From the human T2T-CHM13v2.0 reference genome, Homo sapiens, in NCBI RefSeq assembly GCF_009914755.1, contig NC_060928.1: 64,000 nt of DNA; one strand, 5' to 3'. The notes beneath the pieces were generated by a model that ran no database searches, was not told the DNA's origin, and was given only the letters and a program-made list of their open reading frames with translations. A program made the position numbers and the translations under genes. Below, in pieces: positions 690 to 52,164 of the stretch (positions within the stretch are counted from its first letter, which is position 1; each line of letters begins with the position of its first letter).

Positions 690-729
690 TGGAGGTTCTG
701 AGGCATCAGCCAATTGTTACGAGTAATCT

Positions 730-7629: not shown

Positions 7630-8050
7630 TTTGGGTTCTCTAGAAAGGCAAGAAATTGGGCACAAGTAACTTAATGGAGGTGATTCCTGGAAGCATGGTG
7701 AGGGGAAGTGGCTGGGAAGGCAGGTAAACCATGAAAGTGTCAGTGAGTGGGTGAGCCCAGTGGGAAACTGGGGCCAATTCTGAGGACCCTCTGGGACAAT
7801 CCTGAGGAATGGTCTATGTGGATGGCTGGGATGAGCTGCTCACTCCTGCCCCTCACTGGCTGAGGACTCTTCCTGAAGATGAACTGTCAGCACTCCTGGC
7901 CTGTTCTGCATGTAGGCAAGCATGTTTCTGTGGCAGGAGAATATGGGTACAGACAGAGCCTTAGAACACAACATGTGGACGTGTCTGCAGGGGACCTCTG
8001 GTGGCTTCAGCAAATACGCAAGTGGAGCTGAGTCTACCTGACTCACCTGG
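7630..8050 (-). mobile_element. Old MLT1 (J/K-like) LTR remnant; paralogue at about 31045-31480
   Basis: TTGGGTTCTCTAGAAAG..GGGCACAAGTAACTTAATGGAGGTGATTCCTGGAAGCA resembles the antisense MLT1 3' end. Confidence 0.45.
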
Positions 8051-10979: not shown

Positions 10980-11390
10980 AGGGGTCTTCCAGGAAGCAGA
11001 TCCTCAGGCGGAGGTAAACCTCAGGAAACTCACCAGGGAGCGGTCTGGGGTTCCACACCTGTGAAAGGAAGCAGGACCAGGGAGAGGAAGGAGCTGAGCT
11101 GTGATGCAGCTTCCACAGAAGCTCTGGCCAATCCTGTGGGGAGTTGTGATACCTAGATGACCTTTTAGAGCTGAGTTGGGATGAGAGGTCTTGGGTTTTA
11201 TTCCCAGATTGACAAGCACTGGAAGGCAGCTACCTGGGAGGGGATGTGGCCTTAGGTGAGATTCTCTTCAGCTGAGCTAAAGCTTAGGAGGGGCCGACAG
11301 CTAATAGACTCCTGGGGCATCCAGTGGTTGCAGAACAAATCCTTCCTTCCTGAAAGGGGAAATAGTGGCTGCATCCTTTCACCTACTATG
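10980..11390 (-). mobile_element. Old MLT1 (G/H-like) LTR; paralogue at about 31826-32225
   Basis: GGGTCTTCCAGGAAGCAGATCCTCAG..GGAAGCAGGACCAGGGAGAGGAAGGAGCTGAGCTGTGATGCAG..GTGGCCTTAGGTGAG..TTCAGCTGAG are antisense MLT1 motifs. Confidence 0.55.
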
Positions 11391-14169
11391 TCAAAGAATC
11401 ACAGCATAAAAATGAACACATGAACGTTTAGACCTAGTATGGATCAAACTGTCAGGATATTTCCTTATGGTGTCCTGAAGGGGTGAACATGAAGCATCAG
11501 AGCTGACCTCCTTCTAAATTCTTAAACAGATAGATGCTGTTACTTTTAAGTCCAGCATGTCAGCCCCATCTTGAGGGTTCTGGAGTTTCAGAACTTGTCT
11601 GTGCCAAGAGCTGCAATGTTTTGAACAGACAACAGGATGAGAATTGTGTGGAAGCATCCCCAAAGCTAGATCAGTCTCTGAGGGATGCTCCCTGGAGGCT
11701 CAGTTGGGTCACCTTTGGGGCAAGGGACAGGTTGGCCTAGAAACACTTCTCCCTTTCACCACACTTCCCTAGCAGTCTCCTGGCAGGGACATTAGTCTCT
11801 AATAACTGGGGAAAAGTCAACATTGGACAGTCTTAAAGCTTGTCCTCTAGTAGACCCCAAATGATGGACTTAATGGAACTACTCTGAGTCCTACATGTTT
11901 GATAGCCTGCGATGTTACTCTTGAGGTTCAATTCAGCTGGGTCTTTGAGGCATACTATTTTCTCTGATAATGTTTGTCTTCTAACCTAGTGTTGCTGGTT
12001 GACTTGGTCTCAACCTAAATGCTTCTTGGACTTGATTGCTCTGAAGTCTAATGTATTTACACATTAATCATTTTGAGTTGGTATGTGGTATTCCTGGTGC
12101 TGATTGAACAGTTTGCCTGCTTCTGTACAAATGATGGAGCCAAACCAGACCAGGGCATCGATAGTAAAACAAGGTTATAGGAGGTAATAACAAACTGTGG
12201 TTTTCCTTCTGGCAACTCAAATGCCACTTGGCTGCCTTTTTTGCCTTTTTCAACTGTATCAGTCTGCTATCTGGTGCCTCAGAGGAATCAACATTGTTAA
12301 GGAACATGAAAAATTGCAGGCAAGAGCTGGATCTCTCTAGAAAACTGTGTTACATGTCAAACAATGCTCTGTCCAAATATACTTTCTTCTATAACATTTT
12401 TGCCCCCCTCTGGGAGGGAACTAAGACCAGGTTTTGTAGGAAAAGGTAAGAGCTTTATGCAAGTTTCACACATAGTGCTGATGTACCTTCAGAATAGTGT
12501 TGCATGAGATGAGGGAGCTCCTTTGACACAGGTTAGAGCATGGAAGGCATCATCCCCATGATGGGTGGGTTTGGGGCATCGTGAATCTCCCTAGTGATCA
12601 GGGAGAAGCTCCCTTTCCCTGTTCAAGATTGTCAACAGGGGCTGGTGGCTCAGTGAAGCTCTATGCTCTGCCCTTAGGTGGTAGAATGGATCTTCCTTGG
12701 AACCAGTCTGAATAGGAGGATACAGGAGAAGACATAGCCCAAGGCCTCTTTTGTAGCTCCCTTTGCTTTTGCCTGAGCTATTGCTGCCAGCCCTTATATT
12801 TAGTCCTGTTCCATATTTTGAGTATCAGGGACCCTTTGGTATAGACACAGAACTACAGATAGTGGCAGTGTATAAAATGCAAGTGTTAGTGCCTTCATCA
12901 TTTTGATCGCATGTCTCCTCGATTGTTGGACTCCTATAATCAGGATATTTTTTCTAGATAAAGTGTGGGCTCCTGGGCTAGGTCTGCTTGGATTGTTTGG
13001 CATAAAGCAGAAGTGTGGTGGAAACTGAGAGCTGTATCAGAGGCAAGTACCTAACCATTGTAGTTGAGGGGGAATTACAAGGGTCTTGCTGGCTTCTGGG
13101 TCCTTGAGCCCAGGATTAGGGGAAGAATATGTGAGTTCAAGGGCTGAGCTGGGTCCTATGAGAAAAAAATGCCTACACAGGATTGAACATGGAGGAATCT
13201 ATCAGACAACTGAGATGAGAAGCTGTGGGGGAGGATTCATCCCACAAAGCAGGTAAGGGAGTAAGGCAGGTAGCCTCAGAGTACAGTGAGGTGAAATGAG
13301 CTTTGGGTAGGCCAAGAGTGAGGCTTAGACTCAAAGCTGCTGAAGAGTGGGGTCCCGTTTTGTGGCAATGAGCTTGCCTTAGGCCTGGCTGCTGTGCCAT
13401 GATGGGGACACTGCTGGGCAATTACTCTTCACTGTAGACATCTGAGTCAAGCTTGGTTCCTGTGACCAGTAGAGCTCTACCTGAGAATCCTAGTATTTGG
13501 TGGTAAATCCCAGGACACTCCCATGGGGTGAGGGTAATAAGCTCCTTAAATGATTCCTGATCCCAGCTGCACTGAGTTCTGGGAAATATGAACTACTCCA
13601 ATGCCTGAGTCACATGAATTATAGGTTTCAACTCAGCAAGTCTTTGGAAAAGCTGGTCAAGTGGCCTGATGTCCGGTTAAACTGTATCAGAAATGCAGTG
13701 GAATCACTTTTGTTTTTTCTAGGCAGGATCAATTAACACAGGTGTTTTTCTGGCATAGGTATGAAGTACTCTCAGGTACTTGAATATACCTGCTCTTTCC
13801 TTGACTACCTAAGAGGCTATTGCTTATGTGGTCATACCACCCTTGTAAGTTGCTCAGAAACAGATCAGAAAGCTGTTTGTGTTTTCGAGCTGGCATGCCA
13901 AGGCCACATGTCTAGATAGTAATTTTTATTTCTATCACGTAGGCTATGTTTTGAGAACTCAAGGAAAAATAAGTCAAAGCAGGACCTAGGCTGTTGAGGG
14001 AACTCCTTGGTGAATATGTTGGCCAAAACTCAGAAGGCTTATTGATATTGTTAGCATCTTACATGAGACACTTGTCAGGTGCTTCTTCAACATTGATTCC
14101 CACATTGTTGGCCAAATACACACCTGACATCCTTGTGGAGAAATTATTCCCCACAGATCTCATTCCAGC

Positions 14170-14582
14170 TTATTAAGGTATACCATACTACAACCCACAT
14201 CCCCTAACTATAGTGACTAGTTCAGGGATGGGCATGCTATCTACATGGCCATGCCACTGAAACCCTGGAAGATACTGCTAGAACTGATGTTCTAGCACGA
14301 AGAGCATTTGAAAGAAAATACTCAAGTATACAGCATTTGTCATGAAGGGAGTGCCTGGAACTTCCTGTCCAGAGGGTGGTGGTGGAGCTGAGAGTTAAGC
14401 TGATACCACGGAGGGTAGAAGAGACAAAGAAATCTGATTCTTGGTGCACCTGAGCCTGTTGAACCAGCTTCACTTGGAACCAACACTACATGTAGAATTT
14501 GCAGTTGGTGAGCTAATTTCCTTTTTACTAGGCCAATGCAGTTGGCAGGTTCCTTGGTTAGTTGTGATCAAAAGATCCTAAC
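14170..14582 (+). mobile_element. ERVL-type LTR remnant (LTR16/LTR33-like); paralogue at about 47920-48336
   Basis: GGGATGGGCATG near the 5' end, and a 3' end AATTTCCTTTT..GCCA.TGCAGTTGG....CAAA.GA.TCCTAAC. Confidence 0.45.
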
Positions 14583-15639
14583 ACTTGAAGCCCAGTGAAA
14601 TATAACTAATGTTCTGGATATTAGAACCTAACTTATCACTTGCAGGATGAAAACCAACCTGTAGCTAACAAGTTTGGAGAGATAAGAGTACTGAATAGCA
14701 TCTAAGGCTTATCAGATTAAATGCTTAAATGAGGAAGGAGAAATCGTCTCCTAAAGAGAGCTAGAAAGGCTGTGCCAAAGCCAACATAACATGGAAATCA
14801 TACCGAATTCATGTGACTGACATGCTTATTTCCCCAGCTATGTGCCACTCATAGAAACAAGGTGGTGCCTTGTTTCTGTTGCTCATGACATTCTTTTAAC
14901 AAATTTAGATATCCCCCACCACCCTGGAACTTCTGCACAGAAATGAAAGGTGAAATCAAACAAGAAGCTTCACATGAAATATCTTGCAAATGGAAGGAGT
15001 AACTGACAGGTGTCATGGCTAGTAACGCCAACCCACACCCTAGCATAGGTGATAGTTGCCTGGATCCAGTTGAGCCTCCAGTGAAAACAAATCTGAATTC
15101 TGGCCTTCCTGATCATTGTGTCCTATGGCCACCTAAGTTTTAGACACTTGGTAATAAGCCTCTGTGGGGCATTGTGAGCCATGGGTATACGGCTATGCTT
15201 ACAGTAGTCATGAGTTCACCTGGGTCAGTAGCAGAAAGAAATGGCACATAGAGGAACATGAGAGCCAGAATAGAAGAAACCAACAATTTTCCTGGAGCAT
15301 GAGGTGGTAACTTGGCAAACAGTGAAATATTAAAGTTACAGATAGGGACTAACTCCTAGAAGGGATGGTGAAGATACCTCAGACATCAGGTCAATATGTA
15401 ATAAAGTTAATGCCCAAGGTGTAAAGGTAACTCAAGATCAGGCCTAATCATCTCCTTCCAGACAAATGGTCATCCTCCCTCTGACAGGAGTGACTGTGGC
15501 AGTGTCCATGGGCATATACATGCTGCCTTTCACATGGGGCTTTATTCAAGAGCTGTAGAAATTACATCTCAAATTACTATAGTGCTGATTTTACTCTCGA
15601 GTTTTAGTTGACATCTAAAAACTACATACTGTTGTGAAC

Positions 15640-15960
15640 TCTGAGATGCAGATGCTAAGGGAGATTCAGAGGTTCAAAAATTTTGGGATTGAGGAAGTTC
15701 TGTGAGGAATTGAATCTGGGGTAGGATCCAGAGGATCATGCATGTCAGACTCGAAGGAAGAAATATTAGGTGGGAAGTGGTTTAGACTGAGCTGTGATAC
15801 TAAGTGTCTTAGCAAAGATGCTGGTAAGCCCCAGAGCTCAAATGCCCCCTTGGAGTCACATGCGTCCTGAATGTGCTGGATTGAGCACCCCTGCTACACT
15901 CAGGCATTGGTTGGACATAGGATGTGGGAAGCAACACTTTAATAGCCACCACAGTCAGCC
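15640..15960 (-). mobile_element. Old MLT1 LTR remnant; paralogues at about 46255-46580 and 53625-53940
   Basis: GCAGATGCTAAGG..GGAAGTGGTTTAGACTGAGCTGTGATACTAAGTGTCTTAGCAA, conserved in all three copies. Confidence 0.5.
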
Positions 15961-17011
15961 GCTGTACTGCGCAGAGGTACTTGGCTACACAGGTTCTCAG
16001 AGCAGCAACTCCATGTCCCTTGGGCCTCCCTTCCAGAGTAAACTCAAGAGGCTCTGGGACAAAATGCAGCGCCTGTGACTGGAGTCAATCTTGGGTAACA
16101 ACTAATTCTCATCCTCTGTCTCCTCCAATATCTACCCTAAATCCCCTTTGGCCTCAGCTGTCAACTCAGCTGAGGGTTGGTGCTTACCTGGTGCTGTGAC
16201 CTAAATCTTTGGCCTGAGGGGTCTCCACTTCTAGAGATCATATGCTTTTCAAGATAGTGCTGCTTGCCTTTATCTTTTGGAGTGGGGCAAGGAAGTTGAA
16301 GGAGATGTCCCATTTTATCTGCTGGGTTCCATTCATATTACTTGCTCCCGGGGTATACTAGTCCATCCTCTCTTCAGAGTGGTTAATCCTGCATTAGGAT
16401 GACTCACAAAACACGTCAATGCTTCACTTGGAATGATGGAAAAAGGGACCACTTCTTTTTATCTCTTGGTACCGAACCCATTAGTGTTACTGGGGGTGTG
16501 GTACCATGGAGATGCCTCCCGCATGTATATGCTTTCTCCTGAAGGAGGGCATCCAAATATGCAGCATGCATGACTCACAAATGCTTCTACCAGGCTTCTT
16601 GAAGGCTGTCTGCACATTCTACAAGGCTACCTACTTCTAAATGGTCTTGTGTGAGGACTATGGATGCCCCCTCCAAGATCCAGATTCCACTTGGTACATT
16701 TGTGACCCAAGACACCTTGGGAACTGAGGTTCACAGTCTTGGCCAGATGGAAGCACTGAGTTACACAGGAAAAACCTAAGTTTCTGAGAAAATTGGGTCA
16801 GTTGGAGCCTCAGCTGGCCAACTTCTGAGATGTCATTCTGTGGAGAACAAGCAGTGATTGAGAGTCCTAAGGAGACTTCTGGGGCATGCAGGCCTGGATG
16901 GGAGGCAGTTTTGGGAAGGAGAATGGGTTAAGCTGAAAGGAAAATGAATCTCAAAGCTGGGGATCCAAAGTAGAAGTTGTTTAGGATAGAGGACCTCTAG
17001 TGGAACAGAGG

Positions 17012-17378
17012 TGATATGGTTAGGCTTAGTGTCCTCACCCAAATCTCATCTTGAATTGTAATCTCCATAATCCCCATGTGTAAAAGGAGAGAGCAGGTGG
17101 AGGTAATTAAATTATGGGGGTGGCTTCCCCCATTCTGTTCTTGTGGTAGTTCTCACAAGATCTGATGCTTTTATACGGGGCTCTTCCCACTTCATCTGTA
17201 CTTCACCTTCCTGCCAGCTTGTGAAGAAGTTGCCTTGCTTCCCCTTTGCCTTCTGCCATGATTGCACGTTTCCTGAGGTCTCCCAGCCATGCTGAACTGA
17301 GTCAATGAAACATCTTTCCTTTATAGATCACCCAGTCTCACGTAGTTCTTTATAGCAGTATGAAAACAGACTAATACA
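17012..17378 (+). mobile_element. THE1 (THE1D-like) MaLR solo LTR
   Basis: TGATATGGTTAGGCTT..CACCCAAATCTCATCTTGAATTGTAAT..GCCATGATTG..TTTCCTGAGG..CTTTATAGCAGTATGAAAACAGACTAATACA; 367 bp, TG...CA ends. Confidence 0.93.
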
Positions 17379-20300
17379 GGAGCTGAAGTCTAAAGCAGAG
17401 CAAATATGCAGAGAAGCCAGAGCCAGCTTTTCTATGTCAATGGCCAGCACCTTGGAGTGTGGACTGGGGGTCATAGTAGCTGGAGGATGGTATGTTTTTC
17501 AAGGTAACATTTGCAGAACCAAACACTTGCTCACATTTTCTCTTATGTGTAGAAAAAAAGGAATCAGAAGGAAGAAAATGTATGGCTATATTTTCTATGC
17601 TTTCACTTTCTAGTGTGCCTTATTGTATACAAACTTTCTTTCAAACAGGAGCCTTGCCAGGCCTCTTGGGATTGTTTTAACTTCTCTCAATGCAGGAAAG
17701 ACATGTGACACATCATGGCAAAGTAAGCAATGTAAGCATGTGAGATGGGCCTTGTGGGGACATAGAGTATAGGGCAGCTCTACATCCTGCATTCACCTGC
17801 AGATGAACATGCTGGTGTGCATGCACAGGGTCATGTGGGGGCATCTTCAATTTGAATAGTGGCTTGGGTAGAAAAGTTTTGCCAGTCTATACAATCAATG
17901 TGCCAGTGGTGACTTTGGCAGGAAGGACTTTGTCTTGACCTTGTTGGTTCTGTGGCTCTTCCAAAGAAGTTGAATGTTGAGGAACAGTTATGGTACTTGA
18001 TGTAAGTTACAGTTCTTAAAGCATTCAATGATAGTTCTACCTTCTTGAGGGTTAGAGTCTGCATGTTACTGCATGGGGAATTTATAGGCAAACTACTTCC
18101 CTAGGGTGACATAGCTAAGGTGTTACATGAAGTCTGGAATCCAGTTAATCTGAATTGATACAGTATATCTTCATAGACACCATTGAATTTAGAGAAGCAA
18201 GATGCTCATCTACACTTTCTCTAGGTCTTGTAGAAGATGCCACCAGTACAGAGAAAGATGATAGAATTCCAAATATCCCCCTGGTGGCAAGAGGGATATC
18301 TGGCATCTCCTTGCCCCCAACTAGTCTGGCCTCGTGTTGACATGCTCTCTGATTCAGTAACGCTAATCCTTGGACTCTATGTAGACCATGGTTAAGACCA
18401 TCGTGGGCATTGTTGCTTCTGGATTCAGGAAGGAGGGTTATCTTTGGCTTTCTAGACAGTCGTCTTTTGATGGGACCAATGAAAGACACAGAATTCCATA
18501 GGTGAGGGGCCAACACCAGGGAATAAACCATGGCAGTATAGAAGATAATTATCTAGGGCCATAAAATGCTGTAACATGCTGGCTTGTACCTAGAAATTAG
18601 AGGAAAACGTGTCATGTCACTGGTGTCAGCAATGGGCAGAACACCTATTCAGGGGACTCCAGTGTTTTGCTATCTGGTGTACTATTCTCAGGAACTTTAA
18701 ACCTTCCTGTCTGTCCAACTCCCCTGGCTTCCCCTAGGTATTTGTAGGTTGCCTGTATCCAGATGACTTCCTTTGGCTTAAGGTCTCTGCATTTGAAACT
18801 TATGTCTCGAGTGCATACTCCCACTTTTAGATACTGAGACAGGAGTCTGAGAGGTGAGCCCTAAGTATATTACGTGTATGGCTTCCTCTTCCAGGTCACA
18901 TTGCTAAAGACCCTGGAAATCGCTCCTATGAGCAGAGGAAAAATCTAAGCTATAGAAACCACAACTACAGCATGGCACTGGTGTACCTCAGGTACTACAA
19001 AGTGATAGCTGATACAGGTTGGGGTACAAAAGATAACCCTTCCAAGTGAAGGTAAAATTACAGATGCCCATAACTTTCAAGCACCAACTTAACCCTTGGC
19101 TGAGCCCTGTCCTCCATTATTTGGAGTCCTAGGGAGAGTTCTAGCGTGCAGGATCTGGATTTTATGCTGATGCTGTACTTGCAGGCCAGGGCAGACCCTC
19201 ATCAGGTTCTGTCCTGTGTGACTCTTGAGTCAACAGTCAAGTGTAGACAGTCAACCCCAAGGTTGCAGGTGGGCTCTTACTTCCAGGAAAATGACTTGAG
19301 ATGCTTTCCTCAAGGTCCTGTGAGAACCGAGTCACTGGCAGAGTAACTTGTCCTATCTCCTAGGAGCCCCTTTTCAGCTGAACAGATCAAACACGATTGT
19401 GGAGGAATCCCCATCTGCCTTGTTAGATTGGAAATTGTGTTCCTGAATTAGAAGTAATATTGATGTTAACACATCCAAGTGCCTATCAAATGGCTTATTG
19501 TAGTTCTTGTCTGTTAGCTTAAACAGTCAGAAGTCTGTTGTGACATAACTTGTGCCCCTTTAAAGAAGGTAAAAATTTTCCTACCACAGGCCATTGTGAG
19601 ATGCTTCTTGTACTCTGTCCTTTCATGAACTGAAAGTCAGCCATGCTGTTGTAGGTCAAGGTGCCTGCATAAGACTTTCTAGGGGAGGGGCAGAGGAGGG
19701 AGCTAAGCAGGCATATGGTATGTTGGAGTTCAGCTTCCATCCGGGCCCACGTGGAGCTCTGAGGTTACAAAGCATGTTGAGGGTACAGAGCATGTTGCTC
19801 TGAGAGTGCAAGTGCCATGTTGAGGTATCGATGTAAGCCTTTTATTCCCAGAGTCAGTACTGGCTGTGGGCTTCTGGGGAAGAGGTCTCTCTACTAGGCT
19901 GAGGGCAGTTTTCCAGAGGAAGTGGCTTGGGAACCATTAGCAGCCAGCAGTCTTAGCTACTGGGTGGTAAATGCCTTGACTCAGTGAAAGGGCACCGCAT
20001 GAAGCACCAACTATTTTCATCATACATGCTGGAACAACTTGTCCCACTGATGGCAAGAAGGGGGTGTGATTGTGTACCAGCATACTCTGGTTGTTGCCAA
20101 ATCTGCAACTTGGTGAGTATGTGGCTGAGCATGTTGCCACATGCAGCAGGTCCTCTTCACATCTGAGAAGGGCAGTGCACACCAGACTCTGTGAAGCTCA
20201 GCATGTTTGTGGTGCCAAATGTGGAGACGGAAGTATCATAGAAATCCAGAAAGGAGAAGTGGAAGGAACTGTGGCTGGCAGGATGGCAGTGACATGGGCA

Positions 20301-21009
20301 TCTGTCACTCAGCATAGCAGGGACCTTGGGACCTCACCAAGTAGAATTGAAGAGCACAAGAACCATATTAGAGAATGGTGAAATCTAGTCAGAACTGGTA
20401 ACAATTCTTCCCTTAACTAATTCTATTGGAAGCAGTAAGCCCAGCCACAACTACTTGTTTTGTGATACTTTGTAGTTTAGGGTGGGCATGACTCCAATTT
20501 CTACTTATATCTTATGGGTCTGAAGGTCAATGGGCTTCCCAGGGTATCTACTTAAGAGGAACAGTCTCAGCTAGCACATGTTTTTGCATTTCCCAAATCT
20601 AGTGACTTCATATCTAGTGATTTCCCAAATTGAGCAATTTCATATCTAGTGATTTGAATTGGATTTGCTTTCTAGTCTCTGACCTGCTTTTCCATGTAGA
20701 AGCACTTGGCACAGCTTTCCTGTCGAACTGCTGCCTTTCCTATAGAGCCCTCCAGATAAAATCTCATCTTCAGTGACTGGATGTGCTTGGCAAGTGAGAT
20801 GGTGTGGTAGGACTAAAGTTCTGCTTATTCTAAGCAGGTTTGGAGGAGTATTCAATAGGGCCACTATACCATCAACTTCCATTCTTCTAATTTACCTAGA
20901 AATTAAGAATTAGGTCTATAGGTATCTTACACCACAATTCATAAAGGACATAGCAGGAGTAGTCTATGTATCTGTCACTTCTATAGATTGAGTTGAATAG
21001 GAGTTCAAA

Positions 21010-23350
21010 TGCTATTCCCTCAGGTTCCAGATGGCTTGGACCATAGGGTAGACTTCCCTCCCACTCCTTTCATTGCAGGTAGGGTCAGGCTCTAGGACCT
21101 TTTGCTTTAAGGCCACCTTTAATCTTTTTTTTAAGATCTGGGATACCTGTGCAGAACGTGCAGGTTTGTTACATAGGTATACATGTGCTATGGTGGTTTG
21201 CTGCACCCACCAACCTCTCTTCCAGGTTACCAGCCATGCATGCATTAGGTATTCATCCTAATGCTCTCCCTCCCCTTGCCCCCTGAGCCTGCAACAGGTC
21301 CTGGTGTGTGATGTTACCCTCCCTGTGTCCACATGTTCTCATTGTTCAACTCCCACTTATAAGAACATGTGGCGTTTGGTTTTCTGTTCCTGTGTAAGTT
21401 TGCTGAGAATGATGGTTTCCAGCTTCATCCATGTCCCTGCAAATGGCACAAACTCATTCTTTTTTATGGCTGCATAGTATTCCATGGTATATATATGCCA
21501 CATTTTCTTTATCCAGTCTATCATTGATGGGCATTTGGGTTGGTTCCAAGTCTTTGCTATTTTAAATAGCACTGCATTAAACATACATGAGCATGTGTCT
21601 TTATAGAATGACTTATAATCCTTTGGATATACCTAGTAATGGGATTGCTGGGTCAAATTGTATTTCTGGTTCTAGATCCTTGAGGAAATGCCACAGTCTT
21701 CCACAATAGCTGAACCAATTTACACTCCCACCAACAGTGTAAAAGAATTCCTATTTCTCCATAGCCTCGCCAACATCTGTTTCCTGACTTTTTAATGATT
21801 GCCATTCTAACTGGCATGAGATGGTATCTCACTGTGGCTTGATTAGCATTTCTCTGATGACCAGTGGTCTTTTGTTCATGTTTGGCCACAAAAGTGTCTT
21901 TTGAGAACTGTCTGTTCATATCCTTTGCCCACTTTTTCATGGGTTTTTTTCTTGTAAATTTAAGTTCCTTGTAGATTCTGGATATTAGACCTTTGTTGGA
22001 TAGGTAGCTTGCAAAAATTTTCTCCCATTCTGTAGGTTGCCTGTTCACTTTGATAGTTTCTTTGGCTGTGCAGAAGCTCTTTAGTTCAATTAGATCCCAT
22101 TTGTCAATTTTGGCTTTTGTTGCCGTTCCTTTTGGTGTTGTAGTCATGAAGTCTCTGCCCATGCCTATGTCCTGGATGGTATTGCCTAAGTTTCTTCTAG
22201 GATTTTTAGGGTATTGGGCTTTACATTTAAGTCTTTAACCCATCTTGAGTTAATTTTTGTATAAGGTATAAGGAAAGGGTCCAGTTTGTTTTCTGCATGT
22301 GGCTAGCCAGTTTTCCCAACACCACTTAAGTAGGGAGTCCTTTCAATCTTATGCTCTTTTGCCACAAGGATAAAAACCTCTCAGGGAATTAGAACTGAAC
22401 CAAAACCTGTGCAGTGGCTATAGCAGAGCTCTTCTAGACTCCTAGTTCCAGGTTCCTTTGAGGTATGTCTCCAGGCAGGAGCAGTTTTGTCCAAGTCTTC
22501 TCATAGGTTCAAGATGGAGAGAGACTAAAGGGATCTGCTCAGGGACGGGGCTGTGCTTTAACTCTCAGCTTGTTTTCTCAGAATATCCTCAACTCTGACC
22601 CTGAGCCTTCAGCAGATGAGAATAGTAGAAGGTAAAGCCTAAATGAGTTCCTGCTGCCTGGAATAGGCACTCCTGTAACTATGGAGACCAGGTGGGCAAT
22701 GTGGGCTGTGGTAGGTATCGGTGATCCTTAGGGGAGGGATCTCCTGTGAAGCCTATGATCTTAGTAGCAGCCTCACAGTGAAATTCATTCTACAGTGTAT
22801 GTCACTGTAATGGGTTGGAGTTCTGGAAAGCTGTTTCAATGAAACAACTGCTGGCCCATATCCTGGCTTGTGGCAAACCCCTGTCTCAAGTAGAACCTCT
22901 GTTGCACCCTTAAGACTTTCATGCCCTTCGTTAATAGTAGCAGAGTCCCTAACAATGAGGTCTCCGGAGATGCGGCAAGTAGAATGAAAAAGACACAAGG
23001 CAAAATGCAAGACAATAGGAATCACAGTACCCAGTGAGCAGGAGATGGCATAGCACAAGTGGGCAGTCAGCCTGTGAGCCAGCCCCCAGGCATCCTTGCT
23101 GCTTGATGTTCAAGCCCCTTCCCTTGAGGGTAGATGTAGTGGCTTGATAAATAGATAATGGAAACGATTTGCCCCTCAAATGAGCTTGAGACTGGCTTCT
23201 GTCTTGGGTCTTACACTCGATTTGTTTTGCAATGTGTGTACTAGGAGAATCAAGCTATGTGGTAAACCACTCCATGCAGCAGCCAACTTGGCAAGGAGGA
23301 GAAATGTTCAACTCGACAGTCTGAGCAGCTGAAGCATATCACTGATCTTG
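21010..23350 (+). repeat. Duplication block (paralogue of 57720-58880), interrupted by an L1
   Basis: CCAGATGG.TTGGAC (21027/57749); GACCCTGAGCC.TCAGCAGATGAGAATAG (22597/58091); CCCTGTCTCAAG (22879/58386); TGAGGTCTCC (22956/58467). Confidence 0.88.
21125..22344 (-). mobile_element. 5'-truncated LINE-1 (L1PA8-like), about 1.2 kb
   Basis: Poly(T) then GTGCAGAACGTGCAGGTTTGTTACATAGGTATAC. ORF2 C-terminal fragments (..[27 protein letters not shown]; ..[20 protein letters not shown]). Short TSD-like AATCTT on both sides. The paralogue near 57835 is the empty site. Confidence 0.95.
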
Positions 23351-23356
23351 GAAGCA

Positions 23357-23866
23357 TAGTAGTCCTCCTTATGTGTGGGAGATATGTTGTAAGACCCCCA
23401 TAGATGTCTAAAACCATGAAGACATTGTCAGAAGGCCAGCTGAGAGTTAAAGCACCTTATATATACTGTTTTTCTCTATACATAATGCATCTATGACAAA
23501 ACTTAACTTCACACTTAGGCAAAGGAAGGCTAACAATAATGAAATAAAACCATAACATACCAGCATTACTACTGGTGACAATTAAGTAAAATAAGGGTTA
23601 CTTGAACACAAACACTGCAATACCATTGATTTGATAATGGAAATGGCTGCTAGTAGCTGGATAGTATACAAGGTGTAGAAATCCTAGACAAAGGGATGTC
23701 CTATGTCCACAGTAGGATGGTATGAGACCTCATCACACTACTCAATGACATGCAACTGAAAACATGACAGGATTACTCTAGGAATTCTGTCTAACTTTGG
23801 CCTGCAGGTACCTGGGTAGCTGATACTGTGGAAAACAAAACCCCACACAAAAGTAGGGGACTACTG
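23357..23866 (+). mobile_element. MER44B-like (Tigger7-derived) full-length non-autonomous DNA transposon inside an MLT1 LTR
   Basis: TIRs TAGTAGTCCTCCTTAT... and ...GTAGGGGACTACTG; internal AAGTAAAATAAGGGTTACTTGAACACAA.CACTGC. Confidence 0.85.
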
Positions 23867-26800
23867 TGGACATTGAGGTTGGCCCGCTGCTGTGAATAAA
23901 CTTGGAAGCAAGTTCTCCTTTGTTCTGGTGGAGCCCTCAGATGAGACTACCTCCTGGGTAATAGCTTGATGGTGTCTTCCTGAGAACTTGAACCAGAGGT
24001 ATCTGGCTAAGCTATGACAGCTTTCCTGACCCTTAGAATCTGGAAAGATAAGTGATTGCTGTTTTAAGCCGCTAAGTTTGAGGTTAATTTGTATAGCAGC
24101 AAAAGATAACCACATATCTATAGCAACAGGCAGCTGCTACTTGGCTCTGGTCAATGATTGCTGTGCAGGAATGACAGTGGTATTGGACAAGAAATAGCTG
24201 TACTTAAAAGCGGGAAATGCCATCTCTCATGTGACTCCTACTGTAGAGTAGGTGTCACATGTGGGTAGGTAGGTCTATCTTCAGGCATGTTTGACATCTG
24301 CAGCATTTTAACAAAGTAATTTTGTGTTCTAGTTCTACCTACCATAGAAGGTCAGGTGATTGAGAACAAGGCTGTATAGTCAGTAAACAGGAGTGCTGAA
24401 GTCATAGCCACATCTTCTTGCACTAGTGTTCCTTTGCTTACCAAACCCTTATTTTAGTCTATCAACAGGGTAAGTGTATCTGGACCACAGCAGAATGGCG
24501 GCCTGGATCAGCTAAGGAATATTGGCATTGGCTTTTGAAAATGAAATGATTTCAGGGTCAGGGGTCTGGGAGAGCTGGGAATACTACAGGAGCCTTCCAG
24601 GGTCAAATGGGAAGAATGGAGTGAGCAAAGACCAGGCATGCCAAGGTCTTGTTAGTTTCTACTGCCTGAGGTCACCCTGCTTAGTACCACCTGAGGGATC
24701 ATTCTGAGATGTGGAAATTCACCTGCTCCTCAGTACAGGGCGTTCTCTACTAATAGCCTTGAGTGAGGTTGCTCTGTCCAGTAAAATGTGAGCCATCTAT
24801 ATTTGAAGTACTAGTCTCACTAGTCTCACCTGATTCTTGTTTTTAATCTTAAAATTCCTGAGTTTGGTTAGATGTGTATTCAAGTCCCACCTACTCCAGT
24901 TGTAGCTCTGGTCCTACTCTAGGGTCTTCTGGCCTGGGTGGCAATTCCCTGCCCTCTGAAGGAACTGCCTCATGGGCTTGCTGAGGGATTAGATGATGAG
25001 TCACCCGTGCTTTCCTCAATTGCTAGCAGTTGAACTTGGTATGTGCATCTAAAGGAAAAAAAAATGCCCTCCCAGCGGACTAGTTTTTAAGTGGCTTAGA
25101 AGTTGTCTGGCTGAGTGGACAATTGGAGATTCTTGTGCCACCATGTGAAGCAATCTAGGCTGTTCAGTGTTCCAGAGTATGTTCCATAAGTGGGGGAAGG
25201 GGCTATATAAGCTGAGGCCATAGCCAGCATCAGAATAGAAACCCCAGCCAGAACTGGGGCAGCCATCCCAGATGGCATTCAATACTCAGAGTAGGAAGAC
25301 CCCAGGTAAGGGGAGGTTCTCAACTGTCCACCTCTCTCTGAGGGGAAGACTAAAGCTGGGCAGCCTACAAGGGTGAGTGGAGATGCTTGCCATGAAGTGA
25401 CAGTCAACCTCAGCCAGGGTCTATGCTGAACACATCCAGGGAGGTCTTATTCTTCCTGAATGTAGAATTCTCCAGCTGCTTGTCTTTGGCGTAGAATGGG
25501 CATGCGACTGACTGGTTGATGCTAGATGACCCAAAATAAGCCTTATTCACCACTTCACATTGGAGATTTTGAATAGGACCTGATTCAGAGTTGAAAGCTC
25601 TTGGTGGACTGTCCTGGAGTAGATCTGCCCCCACACCTCATGTTCCTCCCTCTCCATGTCAGATACATTAAATGAGTGTTATACACTTGAGTGTCTATCA
25701 TGTGACAGAAGCTGAGATTCTGGTTACTGCTGACTCACATCTTATTCCTGAAGACTTTACAGAAGACCTAACAAATCTCCAGGACACTTGTTCCCTTTCT
25801 GTGGAAAAGGCTGCTAGACCTTGTAGCAACAGGCCAGGATGGTGTGGGACCAATAGAGTAGGAGCAGAAGCATAGAAGTACTGAAGTGCTTTCCTCTTGA
25901 ATATTCCCTTGTGGTCTCTACTCAGGGAGGCTTAGGATCTTCTGAGTTCCCATGTCCTGGTTATGGGTCCATCTGAGGAAAAGATGAGTTTCCTCCCTGA
26001 GTGAAGGGCACCGCTTGACTTGGAATGTTGGCTTTTCCTTCAGAGTGTATCCTCTAGTTTCCTCTAAGACACAGATTAGAGCTAAACATTGGGATAGTTG
26101 GGGGTGGTATGAATTGGACTAGAACCAACTAATAGTGAGTCCATGGGGGGGATTCTGTGTGCTAGATAAGAGATTGAAGAAAATTGTAGGGTGGTTAACT
26201 CTTCACCTCCCAAACCTCACAAATGCAAATGCTGTCCCACCCTGGAGCTTCCCTAGATGACTGTCCCCCATGCCTCTTGCCTTTGGTGCTCCTTTACTGC
26301 AATCAGTGGCCCATTTTCTGTGGCTACCGACCAGTATGGGCATTTGAAGATGTGGTTGACATATATTTTTATCCTACATTAATCAATGGTTGAAGCTCCT
26401 TGCTGGATTCTAGATCTTGGCTTAAATGTGCCTGCCCCAAAGTGCCTGTACTTCACTCATGCCTGACCTCCCTATGTGCATTCCCCATTCAGTCTCAGTC
26501 ACAATCTGTGAACAATGAGGACAGATCAACTATCTCCAGGCCATTTTGATTCTAATGTGAAGCGCCACATTTGAAACAGACTTCATTTGCTGAGCTGACA
26601 GGAAGCTGAGCACTAGATAACATCTTTGGTACTGCTAAGGATTTTTGACAGTATCTTGTATCCAATGGGATGCTATTGAGAACTGCAAGTGTGGGGATGT
26701 GTAAAACCTAATTGTTCTGTGACACAAGAACACCTTTGGGTGCCATCATTTTTCCACAGAAGGGTCTGGGACCCTGTCTCAACCTGTTGAAAGGGTAGGA

Positions 26801-29800
26801 GGTTCTAAAATGAGTCAAGTGAGTCCATTATGCTGATGCTGCTCATCAGGTGTTGGCTATTCCCACCATCTTAGCACAGGCTCCAAAGACATATTCTCAG
26901 TAGGTATGGAGACACCTACTGAGTGAAGGAGATACATCTGAGAACAAGTAGGTCTGTGTGCCTCTTTGATAGAGGACATGATGTTCCTTCTGGTTCTCCT
27001 TCACTTTGACCTGCAAGCTCCTCTTTGGTCTACATAAGCTGCATATCTTCTTCTAGTTCTGGTTTGACTACAACTTCAGGTACTGTTAGACATAGCATTT
27101 TCTATCACTTGTGTTTAGATATCAAATCATAGAACTTGAGGCTACATGGTCAGATTCCTCCCCTGTAGCCTGAACATGGTGTTTCCTTAACTTTTTGTCT
27201 TTAACATTCATGTCCTTTTGAATTCAAAGTGGTTTTTCTCCTTCATATTTGCCTCTAATGAGTATTGGTGTTCAATGACTGTTCCTCTGTTTGGTGGAGC
27301 TGCAATGCTCTTCTGGGAGCAGGGATAGCCAAATCAGCGCAGTGATCTACTTGGGTCCCAGAACTTAACTTGCAGCATTGCTGGTACCTGGTAAAGAACT
27401 GGCAGGAAGAGTTGTGCTTAGTTGGTTGAATTTTCAGGGCATGAAGTAATTGTCAAGTGGAACTGAAGAGGATCATGTTAATCTCCCTGAAAGGGTTCCA
27501 TCTGATTGGTATGAGGTTCTATTGGAGACCAGTCTTTTCCCCTCTTTTCCCCCAGGGCAAGGAGCCTAGTCTGTAACTACTGAAGTCTAGCACTGGAGGA
27601 TCATCGAGGTATTGTCAGGTTGTTTGCGTGACCAGTATCAGTGAGATAGGTAGTTAGTGTTATGTATCCATTAAGTAGTTGGTGTTACATATCCATTCTC
27701 TTTGGGATGTTCCTTTGCTTGAATAGACATCAAAATCCTGACTTAGTCATTCAATGACTAATGGTTTAAGGTAGTAAGTAGTCCATGGGTGGTTTTGTTC
27801 AGGTCAGCTGTGGATTTGGGATCCCTTTCTTTGATCGAGTCTCCCAAAGGCATTTGAGTTGTGAAAGATGGCTCACTATGACACCATCTGTGCCAACAAG
27901 CAGAAGTAGAAACAAAAGGTGGCCAGCCTGAAGCTGCCTTTCTAAAGGCATGAACTGGAATTTTCCCACAAGTTCTGCTCACATACATTGTCCAGGATAG
28001 TCATGTGGTCACAAGTATGAGTAAGAGGCTTGTCTTGTTTTTAGCTTGGGGAGCTGTATGGCTACCTAACAGGAGACTCTGACCAAAACAGAGGAAAGCA
28101 AGGATTTGGGGTAACTAGTCTGTTACACCACCCGGTATAGAAGAGAACTCTTCAGATTTAGTACCAAACTCAACTAGTAATGATATGCTAGCTCACCTGA
28201 TCAGGTTTCCTCTGCTTCTCCCACTGTCTAGGCTGGTGGTGTCTAACTTTTGAGGTTGGCTACCTGGCTAAAACTTCAGTCTGGCTTTGAATGTAGTGGT
28301 TAGACATTGGCCACTGGCAGGTTCAGGTGGAGTTCTGGTATTCTAAGGAAGCTCATGTGAAACCATCATTAAGAACCCATCACATTGTTGTTTGTGCAAG
28401 TCCTGGCCCCTGATGCTGGTGTCTTCAGTACCTCACCAGAATCTAGGTAAAGCTGTAGCATGTCATCCAGCTGTGTGGCCTGGGAAAGATGTAGTAGGAA
28501 AGATGCCTGTATTCTTGGGCTACAGAGATGTAAAAATAGGTATTGGGTGTGAGGTTACCCAAGCTTCTCTGGTGAGGGGCTGTATTAGGTTGGCACAAAA
28601 GTAATTGCGGTTTTGAACTGTGAATTTTAAATCATTATAACTAGGCTCAAACACATCTTTATTAATCAAAGTAGGAACCATTACAATCAACAGATTTTTG
28701 CCAATGAGAAATAAGTTGATTCTTGTAACAAAAATCCATGCTTTGGGATTTGAACTCTTGGAGAGCATTTTCTTCATCTTGCTTGTTGTAGAAGCATTTT
28801 CCCTGCAAAAATTGGCAACTGACTACCGGTTCAAGCATTTTGGCAAGAGGTCAGGTGAATGTGGCAGATGAGGCGCAACTTCATAGCCTAATTCATTCAA
28901 CTTTTGAAGCATTGGTTGTGTGATGTGCAGTCAGGCATTGTCCTGGAGAACTGTACCCTTTCTGCTAAACAATATTAACTGCAGGCCTTAGGGTTTTTGT
29001 TGCAACTTATTGATATGCTGAGCATACTTCTCAGATGTAATGGTTTCACCAGGATTCAGAAAGCTACAGTGGATCAGACTGGCAGCAGACCACCAAACGG
29101 TGACCATGACCCTTTTTTTGGTAAAAATATGGCTTTGGGAAGTGCTTTGGAGGTGCTACTTGGTCCAACCACTGAGCTGGTCATCGCCAGTTGTCATATA
29201 AAATTCACTTTTCATCACATGTCACAATCTGATCAAGAAGTGGTTCTTTGTTTTTGCATAGAATAAGATGACACTTAAACGATGATTTTAAAAACTTTCA
29301 CTCAGCTCATGAAGCACCCACTTACCAAGGTTTTCCACCTTTTCCAGTTGCTTCAAATGACTGTAGAATGGTCAACATTGAGTTATTCGTCAACTTCTTG
29401 TATAGTTGTAAGAGGATCAGCTTTGATCAGCTTCAATGATTGCTCTCAATTGGTTGTTGTCAACTTCCAATAGCTGGCCACTATCTCATCTTCAAGGCTC
29501 TTGTCTCCTTTGCAACGCTTCTTGAACCACCACTGTACCGTATGTTAGCAGTTCCTGGGCCAAATGCATTCTTGCAAGTTGTCTCTGCTGCTTTATGACC
29601 CATTTTGAACTTCAATGAGAAAATCACTCATTTGCTTTTTGTCTAACGTTTCCATAGTCTAAAATAAACAAGTAATATGTCATTAGCAAAACCATAGTGA
29701 GAAAAGCCCATTAAAAATGACATATAACATAGCCACATTTTAGAGTGTATTCCAATATCAAATGGCAAATTCCAACAATGCAAAAACCACAATTACTTTT

Positions 29801-32225
29801 GTACTCACCTAGTAGCAGAAAGTAACTCTTATTTCCTGCTGTGGGTTTTCTGGTAGGCCTGTAGTCCCTGAGGGTAGGCTTGGTACCTGCATGCATGATC
29901 CTTAGGCAATATTGTTATGTGGACATGGAGCTTCTGATGCTTGAGTTGTGTGGGGTTAGTGGAAGCAAGATACAGGTAACAGCTTTAACAGCTCAAATGG
30001 TTTTTTGTGATCTGGGGCTTTCTAGATAAGCATTTTAAAGCTGATCTAAGAGGGTAGAAGAGGGGGAATATGGTGAGCCTACTTCCCAGCACCCCTGAAT
30101 CCATTAACTTTGGTCAGTAGGTAGCTGTGGCAATTGTGGTTTCTTTGCTTTGAAGAATGTCATGAGTGTAGGACTGTATAGGCCCTAGAAGATGTAGGGT
30201 CCTACTCCTTGAACTTTTCATATTAGGCTTAGGCCTCCTTGCATATTACATTTCAACCATATGGTATTCATTGTTAGTTGGCCCACCCCAGTATTCTTAC
30301 CCAATCACTATTGCCTGTCTTCAAAGAGGCTGTGAAAGCTGAACACAGGTTCCATCTAACCTCAATAGGAGGGTGAGAGCATAAGAGCTAATGTGACATA
30401 AACATCTCTACTGAAGGGCTTCTGGAAAGATTTCCTCTATAACTGGAGCCACATATCTAATTATTCCTGAAATGTCCATGTGACATTTGTGGGTCAGCAG
30501 ACATCTTTGGCCTTAGGTACAAGCATGTTGACAGTCAACATTCTAGAGACTAGGATAGAAAGGACCTGGGTCCCTGATGACATCACTGAGCCACAGGACT
30601 CAGAAATGACTTACCACCTGAATTGCTATATGTGGAAAATGACCCACAATTTACTTCAGCCCAAACTGGTATCCTGTATAAAAACAACTGAATTAACTGA
30701 AAAATCACTCTGAAACAGACTCAATTCTTAAACCTCTGCTTACTTTCATCTACCAAAAATGTTTCTTATAAAGCCTACAAGGGCAAAAGGAGGAACAGGA
30801 TTAAGTTCCTAGCTTTAATGCCATTAAGAAAGCTGCTCTCCTGGCTAAACTTAAATATGAAAGGCAAGTGAGCAGCATAACCTAATATGCCTACATCTTA
30901 AAGCAGACAAACATGTTAACTTTATTTCTCTATTAAAACAACCTCAACTTGTGAGCCCAGTTAAATTCAGTTAGGTACTTGAGTTCCTGGGTTAACACTT
31001 ACTTTTCTGATATGCTCAGTCAGCTCAGATTTCACTCCTGCTTAGTTTGAATTCTCTAGAAAGGAGACTCAGACAAGAATTAGGGTACAAGTAACTTATT
31101 GCAGGTGATTCTAAGAATAATGAGAGAGGGAATGTAGGTAATCCAATGAAAGTGTTAGTGAGCAGGTAAGCCTGGTGAGCAACTGGGGCTAATTCTGCTG
31201 AGGATTCCCTGGGACAATCCTGAGGACTGGTCTATGTGGACTCCTGGGGTGAGCCGCTCACTCCTGCTCCTCACTGGCTGAGGACTCTTCCTGGGGATGA
31301 ACTATTAGCATTCTTGGCCTGCTCTGTATGTAGGCAAGCATGTTCCTGTGGCAGGAGAACATGGGCAGAGACAGAGCCATAGAACACACCATGTGGACGT
31401 GTCTGCATGGGAACTCGGGGTGGCCTCATCAAATATGCAAGAGGAGCTGAGTGATTCTACCTGACTCACCTAGATCCACATGTATCCCCATACTGAGTTC
31501 ACTATGTCTTATCTTGATGGGTCACCATCTTGAAGAATTGCCCATTACAAAGAATCTTCTGAAGCTTCTTCCTATGTGTTTGACTTTCCTTCTCAAGTCA
31601 TAAAATCTCAGCGTTAGTAATATATAAGATTTGGCTACCTGGTCTACCTGTGCAGGGGTACTGTGCTGTTTTTGTCATTTATACTTCCTGGGCATGTGCT
31701 CATGACTTTTTTGCAGAGGGGATGGGGCAAGGCGGAACAGTCAGAAAAACCTCTCTAGGAAGAGTGAATAGACGTTCTGGAGAAAAGGGTTCTACTAAAG
31801 ACCTTCTGTGCTTGGCCTCCATTTCAAGCAGATCCTTGGGTGGATGGAGGTGAACCTTGGGAAACTCATCAGGGCATGGTCTTGGGCTCTGTACCTGTGA
31901 AAGGAAAGGAAGCAGGACCGGGCAGAGGGAGGAGCTGAGATTTGATGCAGCCTCCACGGAAGCCATGGCCAACACTGTGAGGGAGCTGTGAAGCCAAGTT
32001 GACCTTTAGAGCTGACCTGAGTTGGGATAAGAGGTCTGCGGTTTTATACTCAGGCTGACAAGAACTGTATGGCAGCCACCCAGTAAGGGATGTGGCCTTG
32101 GGTGAGATTCTCTTCAGCTGAGCTTAGCCTAGGAGGGGCTAACAGACTCCTGGGGCATCCAGTAGCTGAGAACAAGTCCTTTGTGCCTGAAAGGGGAAAT
32201 GGGTGCTGCCTCTTGGCATCCACCA
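23710..32225 (+). repeat. Ancient duplication block, copy 2 (paralogue of 523-11390)
   Basis: Collinear with copy 1 at roughly 75-80% identity by eye. Lacks the MER11 and the 8.13-10.69 kb segment, and carries an Hsmar1. Confidence 0.95.
28585..29812 (-). mobile_element. Hsmar1 mariner transposon, near full length, transposase pseudogenised
   Basis: TIRs TTAGGTTGGCACAAAAGTAATTGCGGTTTT and AAAACCACAATTACTTTTGTACTCACCTAG, TA on both sides (28583-84, 29813-14). Minus strand from about 29654 reads ATGGAAACGTTAGACAAAAAGCAAAT..TTCAAAATGGGTCATAAAGCAGCAGAGACAAC, the Hsmar1 transposase start, with frameshifts. Confidence 0.95.
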
Positions 32226-32599
32226 TGGCAATACTTCCTACGCAGCAGTATAAAATAACAAAATCACTCCCAAACAGTGACCAACCTCATATGCTGTTAC
32301 AATGTTCCTTTATCATGCCTCAAAAGAGCAAGCAGGACACATCAGAACAGCTATAGTATAAATTTCAATATATTCTTGTGTTTTGAAGTAGTCAGCTCTG
32401 ATTTGAACATTCTGCAATTCCGGCTGAGTTGCAAAGTGAAGAGGCCCGTGGGCTGAGGATCTTTCAGAGGGAGTACTGAGGCTGTAGACTGTTCTTTCCT
32501 GTCATTGTCTCCTGGCATTAACACCATTTCTAAATGAGATGTGGACATTTGACTGTCTAGAAGGATGCTGTCCAGTGTATTCCAAAGAATGGGCTCATT

Positions 32600-35500: not shown

Positions 35501-36312
35501 CAAAGCAACCCAGTGGATCAGGTGATGGAAAAAGGGACCAATGTTGCTTATATCTCATGGTTCTAGGGCCCACATAGTCTTTTTTCGGGGGATACGGTAC
35601 CACACATAAATGACTCTGTAGATACTAGATCAAGGAGGGCAGCTCAAACTTTCAGAATACCTACTTGGATGGTTCTACTATACTCCCTGAAGGTCATCTC
35701 AAAGTTCTTCAAGGCAGCTTCTGAATGCTATCATGTAAGACAACTAGTGGACCCCAAATCATAGGGCCCTTCAGTACTTCTTTTCCTGTGATATGAATCC
35801 ACTGGTCAGATGCCTTGCTGTGTGGAACTACCTATCTGGGTGGAACGTGGCAGAGGCCCCCAGACAGTGATAGGAGTTGAAGTTCTGCCAGCAGGAAAGA
35901 AATCCCTAAGATCAGATATCTAAGTCTGTAAGATCAAGATCCTGCCTCTTCTGGTATAGAAGGAGCTTAATGTAATCAAATCACTACTAAATGGCATTTG
36001 ATCTCCTTAAATAGTGCTCCACTAGGTGGGGGGGTTGGGCGGGCATGGTGGCTCAGCTTGGTCTATGGTAGATGGGCTGGGCATTTAGAGACAACAGTAG
36101 TTAGATTGTTTTAGGAAACTGACAGTCCATGTTGTTGCACCCCCATGTAGCCTCTCAGTCAGCCACTGTGGTCACTGTAGTCATCTGCCTATTGGCTGAC
36201 GAAGCTTGGCTGTCAAGTGGCAGACCCATTTTTTCCAGTTTGAATGTTGCTGCTTTGTAGTAGGTCTTTAGATAGATGAACATCTGTGTCACACATGTGC
36301 CTTTTTATAGAC
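32600..36312 (+). repeat. Older duplication block, copy 2 (paralogue of 11.9-14.2 kb, 16.2-16.8 kb and 54.2-55.15 kb)
   Basis: Shared motifs listed for 11880-16760, plus CAGTAG.TAGATTGT...AGAAACTG.CA.TCCATG.TGTTG (about 36095 vs 54910). Confidence 0.8.
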
Positions 36313-42418
<6,106 letters not shown>

Positions 42419-42421
42419 TGT

Positions 42422-48578: not shown

Positions 48579-49167
<589 letters not shown>

Positions 49168-49236
49168 AACTGCTTATAACAAAGTTTACCAGCATAGATG
49201 CCATTTTTATAGACAAGGTATTGCTTTAAGATGTCA

Positions 49237-52164
<2,928 letters not shown>

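What the first reader, a model, noticed from the sequence alone, without database searches (positions are those of the whole stretch)
21125..22344. Dense 2-5 bp deletions at short tandem motifs (TOP1/ID4-like transcription scar) in an L1PA8
Seen against the remembered consensus, one repeat unit is lost again and again: TTTAT[AGT]AGAATG (about 21603), GG.TAT[AT]ACC (21628), CCACA[CT]GTCTT (21695), CTGT[TGT]TTCC (21780), TGAT[GAT]AGTT (22053), CA.TT[ATT]AA.TAGG (22327), and more. Few insertions were noticed. Established: topoisomerase-1 transcription-associated mutagenesis gives 2-5 bp deletions at TNT motifs in short repeats, enriched in highly transcribed germline DNA. Inference: the locus has been strongly transcribed in the germ line for tens of millions of years.
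Basis: partly seen in the sequence, partly recalled or inferred. Interest (0 to 1): 0.75.

Follow-up and report, generated by a model that had tools for sequence, protein, structure and literature searches.

The report
Deletion scars in oocyte piRNA clusters
Old LINE-1 copies in this stretch of human chromosome 4, a known egg-cell piRNA locus, have lost 2-5 bases about six to fifteen times more often than matching copies elsewhere, likely because intense transcription in oocytes drives topoisomerase-1-type deletions.

Summary
The L1 at 21125-22344 carries 12 deletions of 2-5 bp in 1,219 aligned nt. Thirty motif-picked copies of the same type predict 0.8 (P 6e-11). One-base deletions and insertions are normal.

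The excess is locus-wide. An older L1 at 50180 has 26 against 4.1 expected, with substitutions exactly as expected. Two L1s near chr4:10.2-10.3 Mb, probably the top oocyte cluster, show about 9 per kb. The window lies in the published CCNG2-CXCL13 oocyte piRNA cluster, transcribed on +.

The TOP1/ID4 label fits only in part. Lengths peak at 3-4 bp (55 of 78), only 17 of 78 sit in true tandem repeats, and TN*T is above chance but not above control copies. Several young or short copies look normal. Cluster edges, parent of origin and TOP1 dependence are untested. Five literature searches found no report of this excess.

The parts
21125..22344 (-). 5'-truncated LINE-1 3' end (PA8-type, label recalled) with 12 deletions of 2-5 bp, one of 6 bp, two of 1 bp; antisense to the cluster transcript
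21121..21126 (+). Left copy of a candidate 6-bp target-site duplication (AATCTT), next to an eroded poly(A) of about 8 T
   Evidence: read from sequence; short, so tentative
22345..22350 (+). Right copy of the candidate target-site duplication
21594..21611 (+). Recurrent deletion site: one TAG unit lost; also lost in two L1s at chr4:10.22 and 10.32 Mb; an overlapping 8-bp deletion in the L1 at 50180
50180..51880 (-). Older LINE-1 piece with 26 deletions of 2-5 bp in 1,679 nt (4.1 expected); substitutions, 1-bp deletions and insertions as expected
36313..44515 (-). Younger long LINE-1 with doubled 5' part; 6 deletions of 2-5 bp in 2,728 nt of ORF2, 4 in its 3' 1.2 kb
62475..64000 (-). Younger long LINE-1 running past the window to about 68560; 9 deletions of 2-5 bp in 2,710 nt of ORF2 but only 1 in its 3' 1,237 nt
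524..4664 (+). First copy of an old, colinear ~23-kb tandem duplication; 82 indels of 2-5 bp against 33 of 1 bp between the copies (unpolarised)
23706..27821 (+). Second copy of that duplication
1..64000 (+). Interior of the oocyte piRNA cluster between CCNG2 and CXCL13 (hg19 chr4:78106722-78396420, +); G>C skew +0.073 outside L1/Alu
   Evidence: and the hub's gene table; the hg19 position of CCNG2 used for the mapping is recalled

Best explanation
This L1 carries a dense excess of 2-5 bp deletions shared by other old L1s in the same oocyte piRNA cluster, likely left by transcription-associated, topoisomerase-1-type cleavage and mis-religation in oocytes. Shown here: the excess, its length specificity (peak 3-4 bp, 1-bp deletions and insertions normal), its repetition in independent elements, and reuse of the same sites. 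From papers: the cluster is transcribed on + and gives 15% of unique oocyte piRNAs. Inferred: very long, intense transcription in arrested oocytes loads TOP1; two nearby single-strand cuts remove 2-5 nt; realignment at a short repeat or 1-4 bp microhomology lets the strand rejoin; the deletion is inherited and drifts to fixation. Older insertions have gathered more (about 15/kb at 11% divergence, 9-10/kb at 8%, 1-3/kb in young copies). The L1 is a passive recorder with no function of its own in this.
For: 12 vs 0.79 expected; 26 vs 4.1 with substitutions 187 vs 187. Pooled window L1s (10,793 nt) vs controls (61,656 nt), deletions per kb: 1 bp 1.02 vs 1.18; 2 bp 1.39 vs 0.31; 3 bp 2.22 vs 0.24; 4 bp 1.58 vs 0.19; 5 bp 0.19 vs 0.11. 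In a blind-fetched 40 kb at chr4:10.24-10.32 Mb a PA8-type copy has 7 in 789 nt (P 1e-6). One of the other 58 genome-wide carriers of the 21604 deletion is at chr4:10,223,254 (chance 0.006 for a 0.32-Mb target) and has 9 more such deletions in about 1,060 nt. Microhomology 60 of 78 vs null 36.5; TN*T on either strand 54 of 78 vs null 30. The same length-specific pattern marks ALB, SFTPB, NEAT1 and MALAT1 in tumours and was assigned to TOP1. Female germline mutation rate rises with oocyte expression. Autosomal meiotic hotspots favour insertions, unlike here.
Against: 2-bp deletions are only 19 of 78, against 82% in RNase H2-null mouse tumours, 57% in RNASEH2B-null CLL and 41% in de novo germline data. 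True tandem-repeat context is 17 of 78 vs 20 of 53 in controls (P 0.05); TN*T 54 of 78 vs 44 of 53 (P 0.10), so the motif does not single out the excess. Deletions of 6 bp or more are also raised (13 vs 3.3). No strand bias was resolved (only 11 events on sense-oriented copies). Normal-looking segments: 62487-63729 1 in 1,237 nt; young L1 at chr4:10.307 Mb 1 in 1,163; 55953-56192 0 in 225; two short pieces 0 in 212 and 0 in 134; three cluster Alus 3 in 792 nt vs 28 in 10,800. No flank control was obtained, so the cluster edge is unshown. The identity of the 10.2-10.3 Mb stretch as the WDR1-ZNF518B cluster rests on recalled coordinates.
Confidence: 0.55

Rival explanations
1. The deletions are cluster-linked and female-germline but come from another lesion, such as TOP2 or R-loop breaks, or breaks tied to piRNA-cluster chromatin, joined by end-joining in arrested oocytes.
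For: Peak at 3-4 bp rather than 2 bp; 18 of 78 without microhomology; less repeat dependence than controls; fourfold excess of deletions of 6 bp or more.
Against: Sharp drop at 5 bp and normal 1-bp deletions and insertions match the known 2-5 bp transcription class; end-joining would be expected to add 1-bp deletions and small insertions (own knowledge).
Confidence: 0.25
2. The excess is regional or due to transcription in another germ-cell type (testis, primordial germ cells), and the overlap with oocyte piRNA clusters is incidental.
For: No flank control; germline ID-TOP1 was correlated with male germ-cell expression; no testis expression data were examined.
Against: Two separate loci 70 Mb apart that are ranked first and second among oocyte clusters both show it, given the recalled mapping of one; six other chr4 copies were not all tested, but L005 and L024 on chr4 have 2 and 1.
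Confidence: 0.12
3. Mutation rate is ordinary and fixation is biased, through selection on piRNA sequences or deletion-biased gene conversion among repeats in the cluster.
For: Two young L1s 26 kb apart share three deletions within about 240 nt, which suggests conversion; clusters evolve fast by phyloP.
Against: Neither process predicts a 2-4 bp window with normal 1-bp deletions; shared sites between elements only 71% identical differ in deletion size.
Confidence: 0.06
4. The deletions were inherited from a deleted source element, or arise from a wrong reference or alignment.
For: The reference is a majority of genomic copies, not Dfam; some gap placements are ambiguous.
Against: Best genome matches are only 83-88% identical and lack the set; the same pipeline gives 0-4 in 33 controls; net length loss is visible without a reference (1,220 vs about 1,260 nt; 1,701 vs about 1,846 nt).
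Confidence: 0.02

Closest known systems
ID4 / ID-TOP1 signature (Reijns et al. 2022, PMC8866115; passages and section 13 read)
   Same: 2-5 bp deletions, other indels unchanged, microhomology or short repeats, TN*T above chance, tied to high transcription, present in the germ line
   Different: There mostly 2 bp and linked to male germ-cell gene expression; here a 3-4 bp peak, weaker repeat dependence, non-genic oocyte clusters, fixed over tens of millions of years
Localised 2-5 bp indel hypermutation at ALB, SFTPB, NEAT1, MALAT1 in tumours (bioRxiv 10.1101/237313; passages read)
   Same: Locus-wide excess of 2-5 bp indels at the most transcribed loci of one cell type, including non-coding RNAs
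   Different: Somatic; here heritable and spread over a cluster of about 290 kb
Oocyte piRNA cluster piC-CCNG2-CXCL13 (PMC13111593, PMC10964541; passages, one section, cluster table read)
   Same: Same place, + strand, antisense L1 bias, fast sequence evolution by phyloP
   Different: The passages read describe no deletion excess or mutational mechanism ('deletion' has 0 occurrences in PMC10964541)
SV hotspots at pachytene piRNA loci (PMC9925758; passages read)
   Same: Raised local mutation offered as a driver of piRNA divergence
   Different: Variants of 50 bp or more, testis loci; 'indel', 'oocyte' and 'topoisomerase' have 0 occurrences
TOP1-type 2-bp deletions in post-mitotic neurons (bioRxiv 10.1101/2025.03.03.641186; passages read)
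   Same: Non-dividing, long-lived cell; transcription-linked deletions
   Different: Somatic and dominated by 2-bp events

Membership tests
ID4 / ID-TOP1 | Selective excess of 2-5 bp deletions with other indels unchanged | tested here: met
   deletions of 6 bp or more are also raised
ID4 / ID-TOP1 | 2-bp deletions are the main class | tested here: not met
   19 of 78; 3 bp 32, 4 bp 23, 5 bp 4; P 0.003 against 41%
ID4 / ID-TOP1 | Short tandem repeat or microhomology context | tested here: inconclusive
   60 of 78 with microhomology vs null 36.5, but controls 45 of 53; tandem repeats 17 of 78 vs 20 of 53
ID4 / ID-TOP1 | TN*T motif at the deletion | tested here: inconclusive
   54 of 78 vs null 30; controls 44 of 53 vs null 21
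ID4 / ID-TOP1 | Rate rises with transcription level | tested here: inconclusive
   Two highly expressed clusters vs dispersed controls only; no flanks, no dose series
ID4 / ID-TOP1 | Dependence on TOP1 and embedded ribonucleotides | not testable with these tools
   Needs genetics or TOP1 cleavage maps
ID4 / ID-TOP1 | Bias to the non-transcribed strand (yeast; title seen in listing) | tested here: inconclusive
   T-only 32 of 67 on antisense copies; 5 T-only and 2 A-only of 11 on sense copies; controls also T-rich
Oocyte piRNA cluster CCNG2-CXCL13 | Position between CCNG2 and CXCL13, within hg19 78,106,722-78,396,420 | tested here: met
   Hub table puts the window 89-153 kb after CCNG2; paper coordinates; hg19 end of CCNG2 recalled
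Oocyte piRNA cluster CCNG2-CXCL13 | Plus-strand transcription with antisense L1 bias | tested here: met
   4 of 6 L1 pieces, the four longest, are on -; G>C skew +0.073; piRNA reads themselves not examined
L1PA8 | Diagnostic 3' UTR block and match to the Dfam consensus | tested here: inconclusive
   The 18-nt block is shared with 18 of 34 aligned copies; subfamily name recalled, Dfam not available

The most novel reading that the evidence does not exclude
The major mammalian oocyte piRNA clusters are female-germline deletion hypermutators: their own transcription in arrested oocytes produces a 3-4 bp-skewed deletion signature at roughly ten times background, still active today, which erodes trapped antisense transposons and explains why these clusters keep their position but not their sequence.
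Probability: 0.4. Interest if true: 0.85.

Novelty: new variant of a known kind. Interest (0 to 1): 0.7.

Why it matters
It offers a concrete mutational cause for the reported fast evolution of oocyte piRNA clusters. It would extend transcription-associated deletion from male germ-cell genes and tumours to a strong maternal case. It also gives a dated fossil record of oocyte transcription that can be read from repeats in any mammal. The predictions are directly testable in public data: step-shaped peaks of rare 2-5 bp deletions over about 1.3 Mb of top clusters, maternal phase and a maternal-age effect.

Tried and rejected
Subfamily-shared deletions: rejected. Deleted source element: rejected. 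Meiotic hotspot origin: disfavoured, because autosomal hotspots favour insertions (PMC7615360 passages) and insertions here are normal.

Alus were uninformative: only three near-full copies in the cluster DNA held, and control counts were inflated by subfamily indels. DPPA2-like pseudogenes were not usable as a matched control: the three cluster copies share an extra block absent from the chr1, chr3 and chr16 copies, and the chr16 copy is partly Alu. FTLP9 found no partner in the genome search. A Pfam search to anchor SLC2A9 on chr4p listed no chr4 match.

The young-L1 comparison (6 and 9 vs 0.8 each) is inflated: controls are younger (3.2% vs 5.2-5.6% divergence), scaling by hand gives about 1.4 expected, and two of the 2-5 bp deletions are shared between the two copies.

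Rows dropped: three secondary hits (L005b, L022b, L025b) and four partial homologs (L066, L067, L068, L070) were left out; one search kept all ten. In one search the two shared deletions were counted once. L088 events beyond the end of homology were ignored. Flank controls outside the cluster and a third cluster were not obtained. Two of 14 supplementary files of PMC13111593 were not searched, and bioRxiv supplements could not be seen.

Full report
Observation. The stretch 21125-22344 is a 5'-truncated LINE-1 3' end on the minus strand, with a candidate 6-bp target-site duplication. A genome search returned 40 other matches at 83-88% identity; 29 were aligned, with three secondary hits and two window copies. 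Against a majority of the 18 copies that share its diagnostic block, the element has 12 deletions of 2-5 bp, one of 6 bp, two of 1 bp and one 1-bp insertion in 1,219 nt. Similarity-picked controls could be biased, so I took the first 30 of 2,124 matches to a 19-nt motif. They have 10 deletions of 2-5 bp in 15,522 nt, so 0.79 are expected (P 5.6e-11). One-base deletions and insertions are as expected, and substitutions are 91 vs 65. None of the 12 is found in motif-picked copies spanning the site. The 21604 deletion occurs in 59 exact genome matches against 3,469 intact.

It is a property of the locus. The older L1 at 50180-51880 is about 145 nt shorter than its best homologs. It has 26 deletions of 2-5 bp against 4.1 expected from ten homologs, while substitutions (187 vs 187), 1-bp deletions (4 vs 4.3) and insertions match expectation. 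Two younger L1s have 6 and 9 in about 2.7 kb of ORF2; the controls there are younger, so the fair expectation is about 1.4 each (scaled by hand). Pooled over six window segments (10,793 nt) vs 61,656 nt of controls, rates per kb are 1.02 vs 1.18 for 1 bp, 1.39 vs 0.31 for 2 bp, 2.22 vs 0.24 for 3 bp, 1.58 vs 0.19 for 4 bp, 0.19 vs 0.11 for 5 bp, and 1.2 vs 0.31 for 6 bp or more (seven control rows left out as stated under Tried and rejected). Copies of an old tandem duplication differ by 4.5-11 indels of 2-5 bp per 100 mismatches in five segment pairs, against 0.6-5.2 in five overlapping control L1 pairs of like divergence.

What the locus is. PMC13111593 (passages; cluster table) reports a plus-strand cluster at hg19 chr4:78106722-78396420 between CCNG2 and CXCL13. 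It gives 15.41% of uniquely mapped oocyte piRNAs and is enriched for antisense L1. PMC10964541 (passages and section 9) lists it among the top five syntenic oocyte clusters in mammals and reports low phyloP for two sister clusters. The hub's table places the window 89-153 kb after CCNG2, which is inside the cluster (hg19 position of CCNG2 recalled). G>C skew is +0.073 outside L1 and Alu, and the four longest of six L1 pieces are antisense.

Replication. I fetched 40 kb blind at chr4:10.24-10.32 Mb, presumed from recalled coordinates to be in the top cluster (WDR1-ZNF518B); it shows the same skews and old duplications. A PA8-type L1 there has 7 deletions of 2-5 bp in 789 nt (P 1e-6). Separately, one of the other 58 carriers of the 21604 deletion lies at chr4:10,223,254 and has nine further ones in about 1,060 nt. 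Four dispersed carriers of that deletion (L008, L011, L016, L030) have 3, 1, 1 and 2 in all. Against this, five young or short segments and three Alus in cluster DNA look normal.

Mechanism. Reijns et al. (PMC8866115; passages and section 13) assign 2-5 bp deletions at TN*T in repeats or microhomology to TOP1 and link them to transcription. Among 78 cluster deletions, 60 have microhomology (null 36.5) and 54 fit TN*T (null 30). Control deletions do so at least as often (45 and 44 of 53). True tandem repeats are 17 of 78 vs 20 of 53. Lengths are 19, 32, 23 and 4 for 2, 3, 4 and 5 bp; the 2-bp share is below the 41% of germline de novo data (P 0.003). So the process works like ID-TOP1 in size window, polarity and link to a highly transcribed locus, but fails the 2-bp feature and is not filed as ID4. 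I put the cluster-linked, female-germline reading at about 0.8 and TOP1 as the enzyme at 0.55 overall. Rising maternal mutation rates with oocyte expression (PMC13439702 passages; 'indels' has 0 occurrences) and TOP1-type deletions in post-mitotic neurons make an arrested oocyte a plausible site; this step is inference. Meiotic hotspots favour insertions on autosomes, unlike here.

Novelty. The cluster and the general TOP1 signature are known. Searches (listings only) found no paper reporting a short-deletion excess at oocyte piRNA clusters; the library lacks most subscription journals. The nearest idea, structural-variant hotspots at pachytene loci (PMC9925758 passages), concerns events of 50 bp or more in testis. 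Verdict: a real, strong, locus-wide and probably cluster-general signal; a new variant of transcription-associated deletion; interest 0.7. Open: cluster edges, parent of origin, present-day activity and the enzyme.

Noticed in passing
window 37925-38170 and 64105-64345 (L077:105-345): Two L1s 26 kb apart and 92-93% identical share three ORF2 deletions (4, 8 and 3 bp) within about 240 nt; the 3-bp junction has only 46 exact matches genome-wide, two of them these. Likely a short gene-conversion tract, or strong recurrence.
   Followed up: partly
window 524-13711 vs 23706-34542: Colinear old tandem duplication with about 23-kb spacing, 67-78% identity by BLAST; further partial copies at 46-48 kb, 53-54 kb, 58 kb and 60-62 kb.
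   Followed up: partly
window 52240-52932; G000:C4:80691476 and 80722153: Three DPPA2-like pseudogenes 30-40 kb apart share an extra block of about 28 nt absent from the chr1, chr3 and chr16 pseudogenes, suggesting an older common origin by local duplication.
   Followed up: partly
window 40331-42412 vs 42424-44515: The long L1 carries two successive 5' regions about 2.1 kb long and 83-85% identical.
   Followed up: no
window 1-64000: CpG observed/expected is 0.11, against 0.16 in the chr4:10.2-10.3 Mb blocks and 0.18 in control loci, with GC 44% vs 39%; fits heavy germline methylation.
   Followed up: partly
window 39226-39252: A 27-T run, about 23 nt longer than in homologs, inside L1 ORF2.
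   Followed up: no
L076:1-521 (FTLP9): The annotated FTL pseudogene upstream found no other match in the genome search, which may reflect heavy decay or low search sensitivity.
   Followed up: no
L086:7035-9195: Young L1 with a 5' inversion in the presumed WDR1-ZNF518B cluster; a 4-bp deletion falls at the same ORF2 site as the 8-bp deletion shared by the two window L1s.
   Followed up: partly
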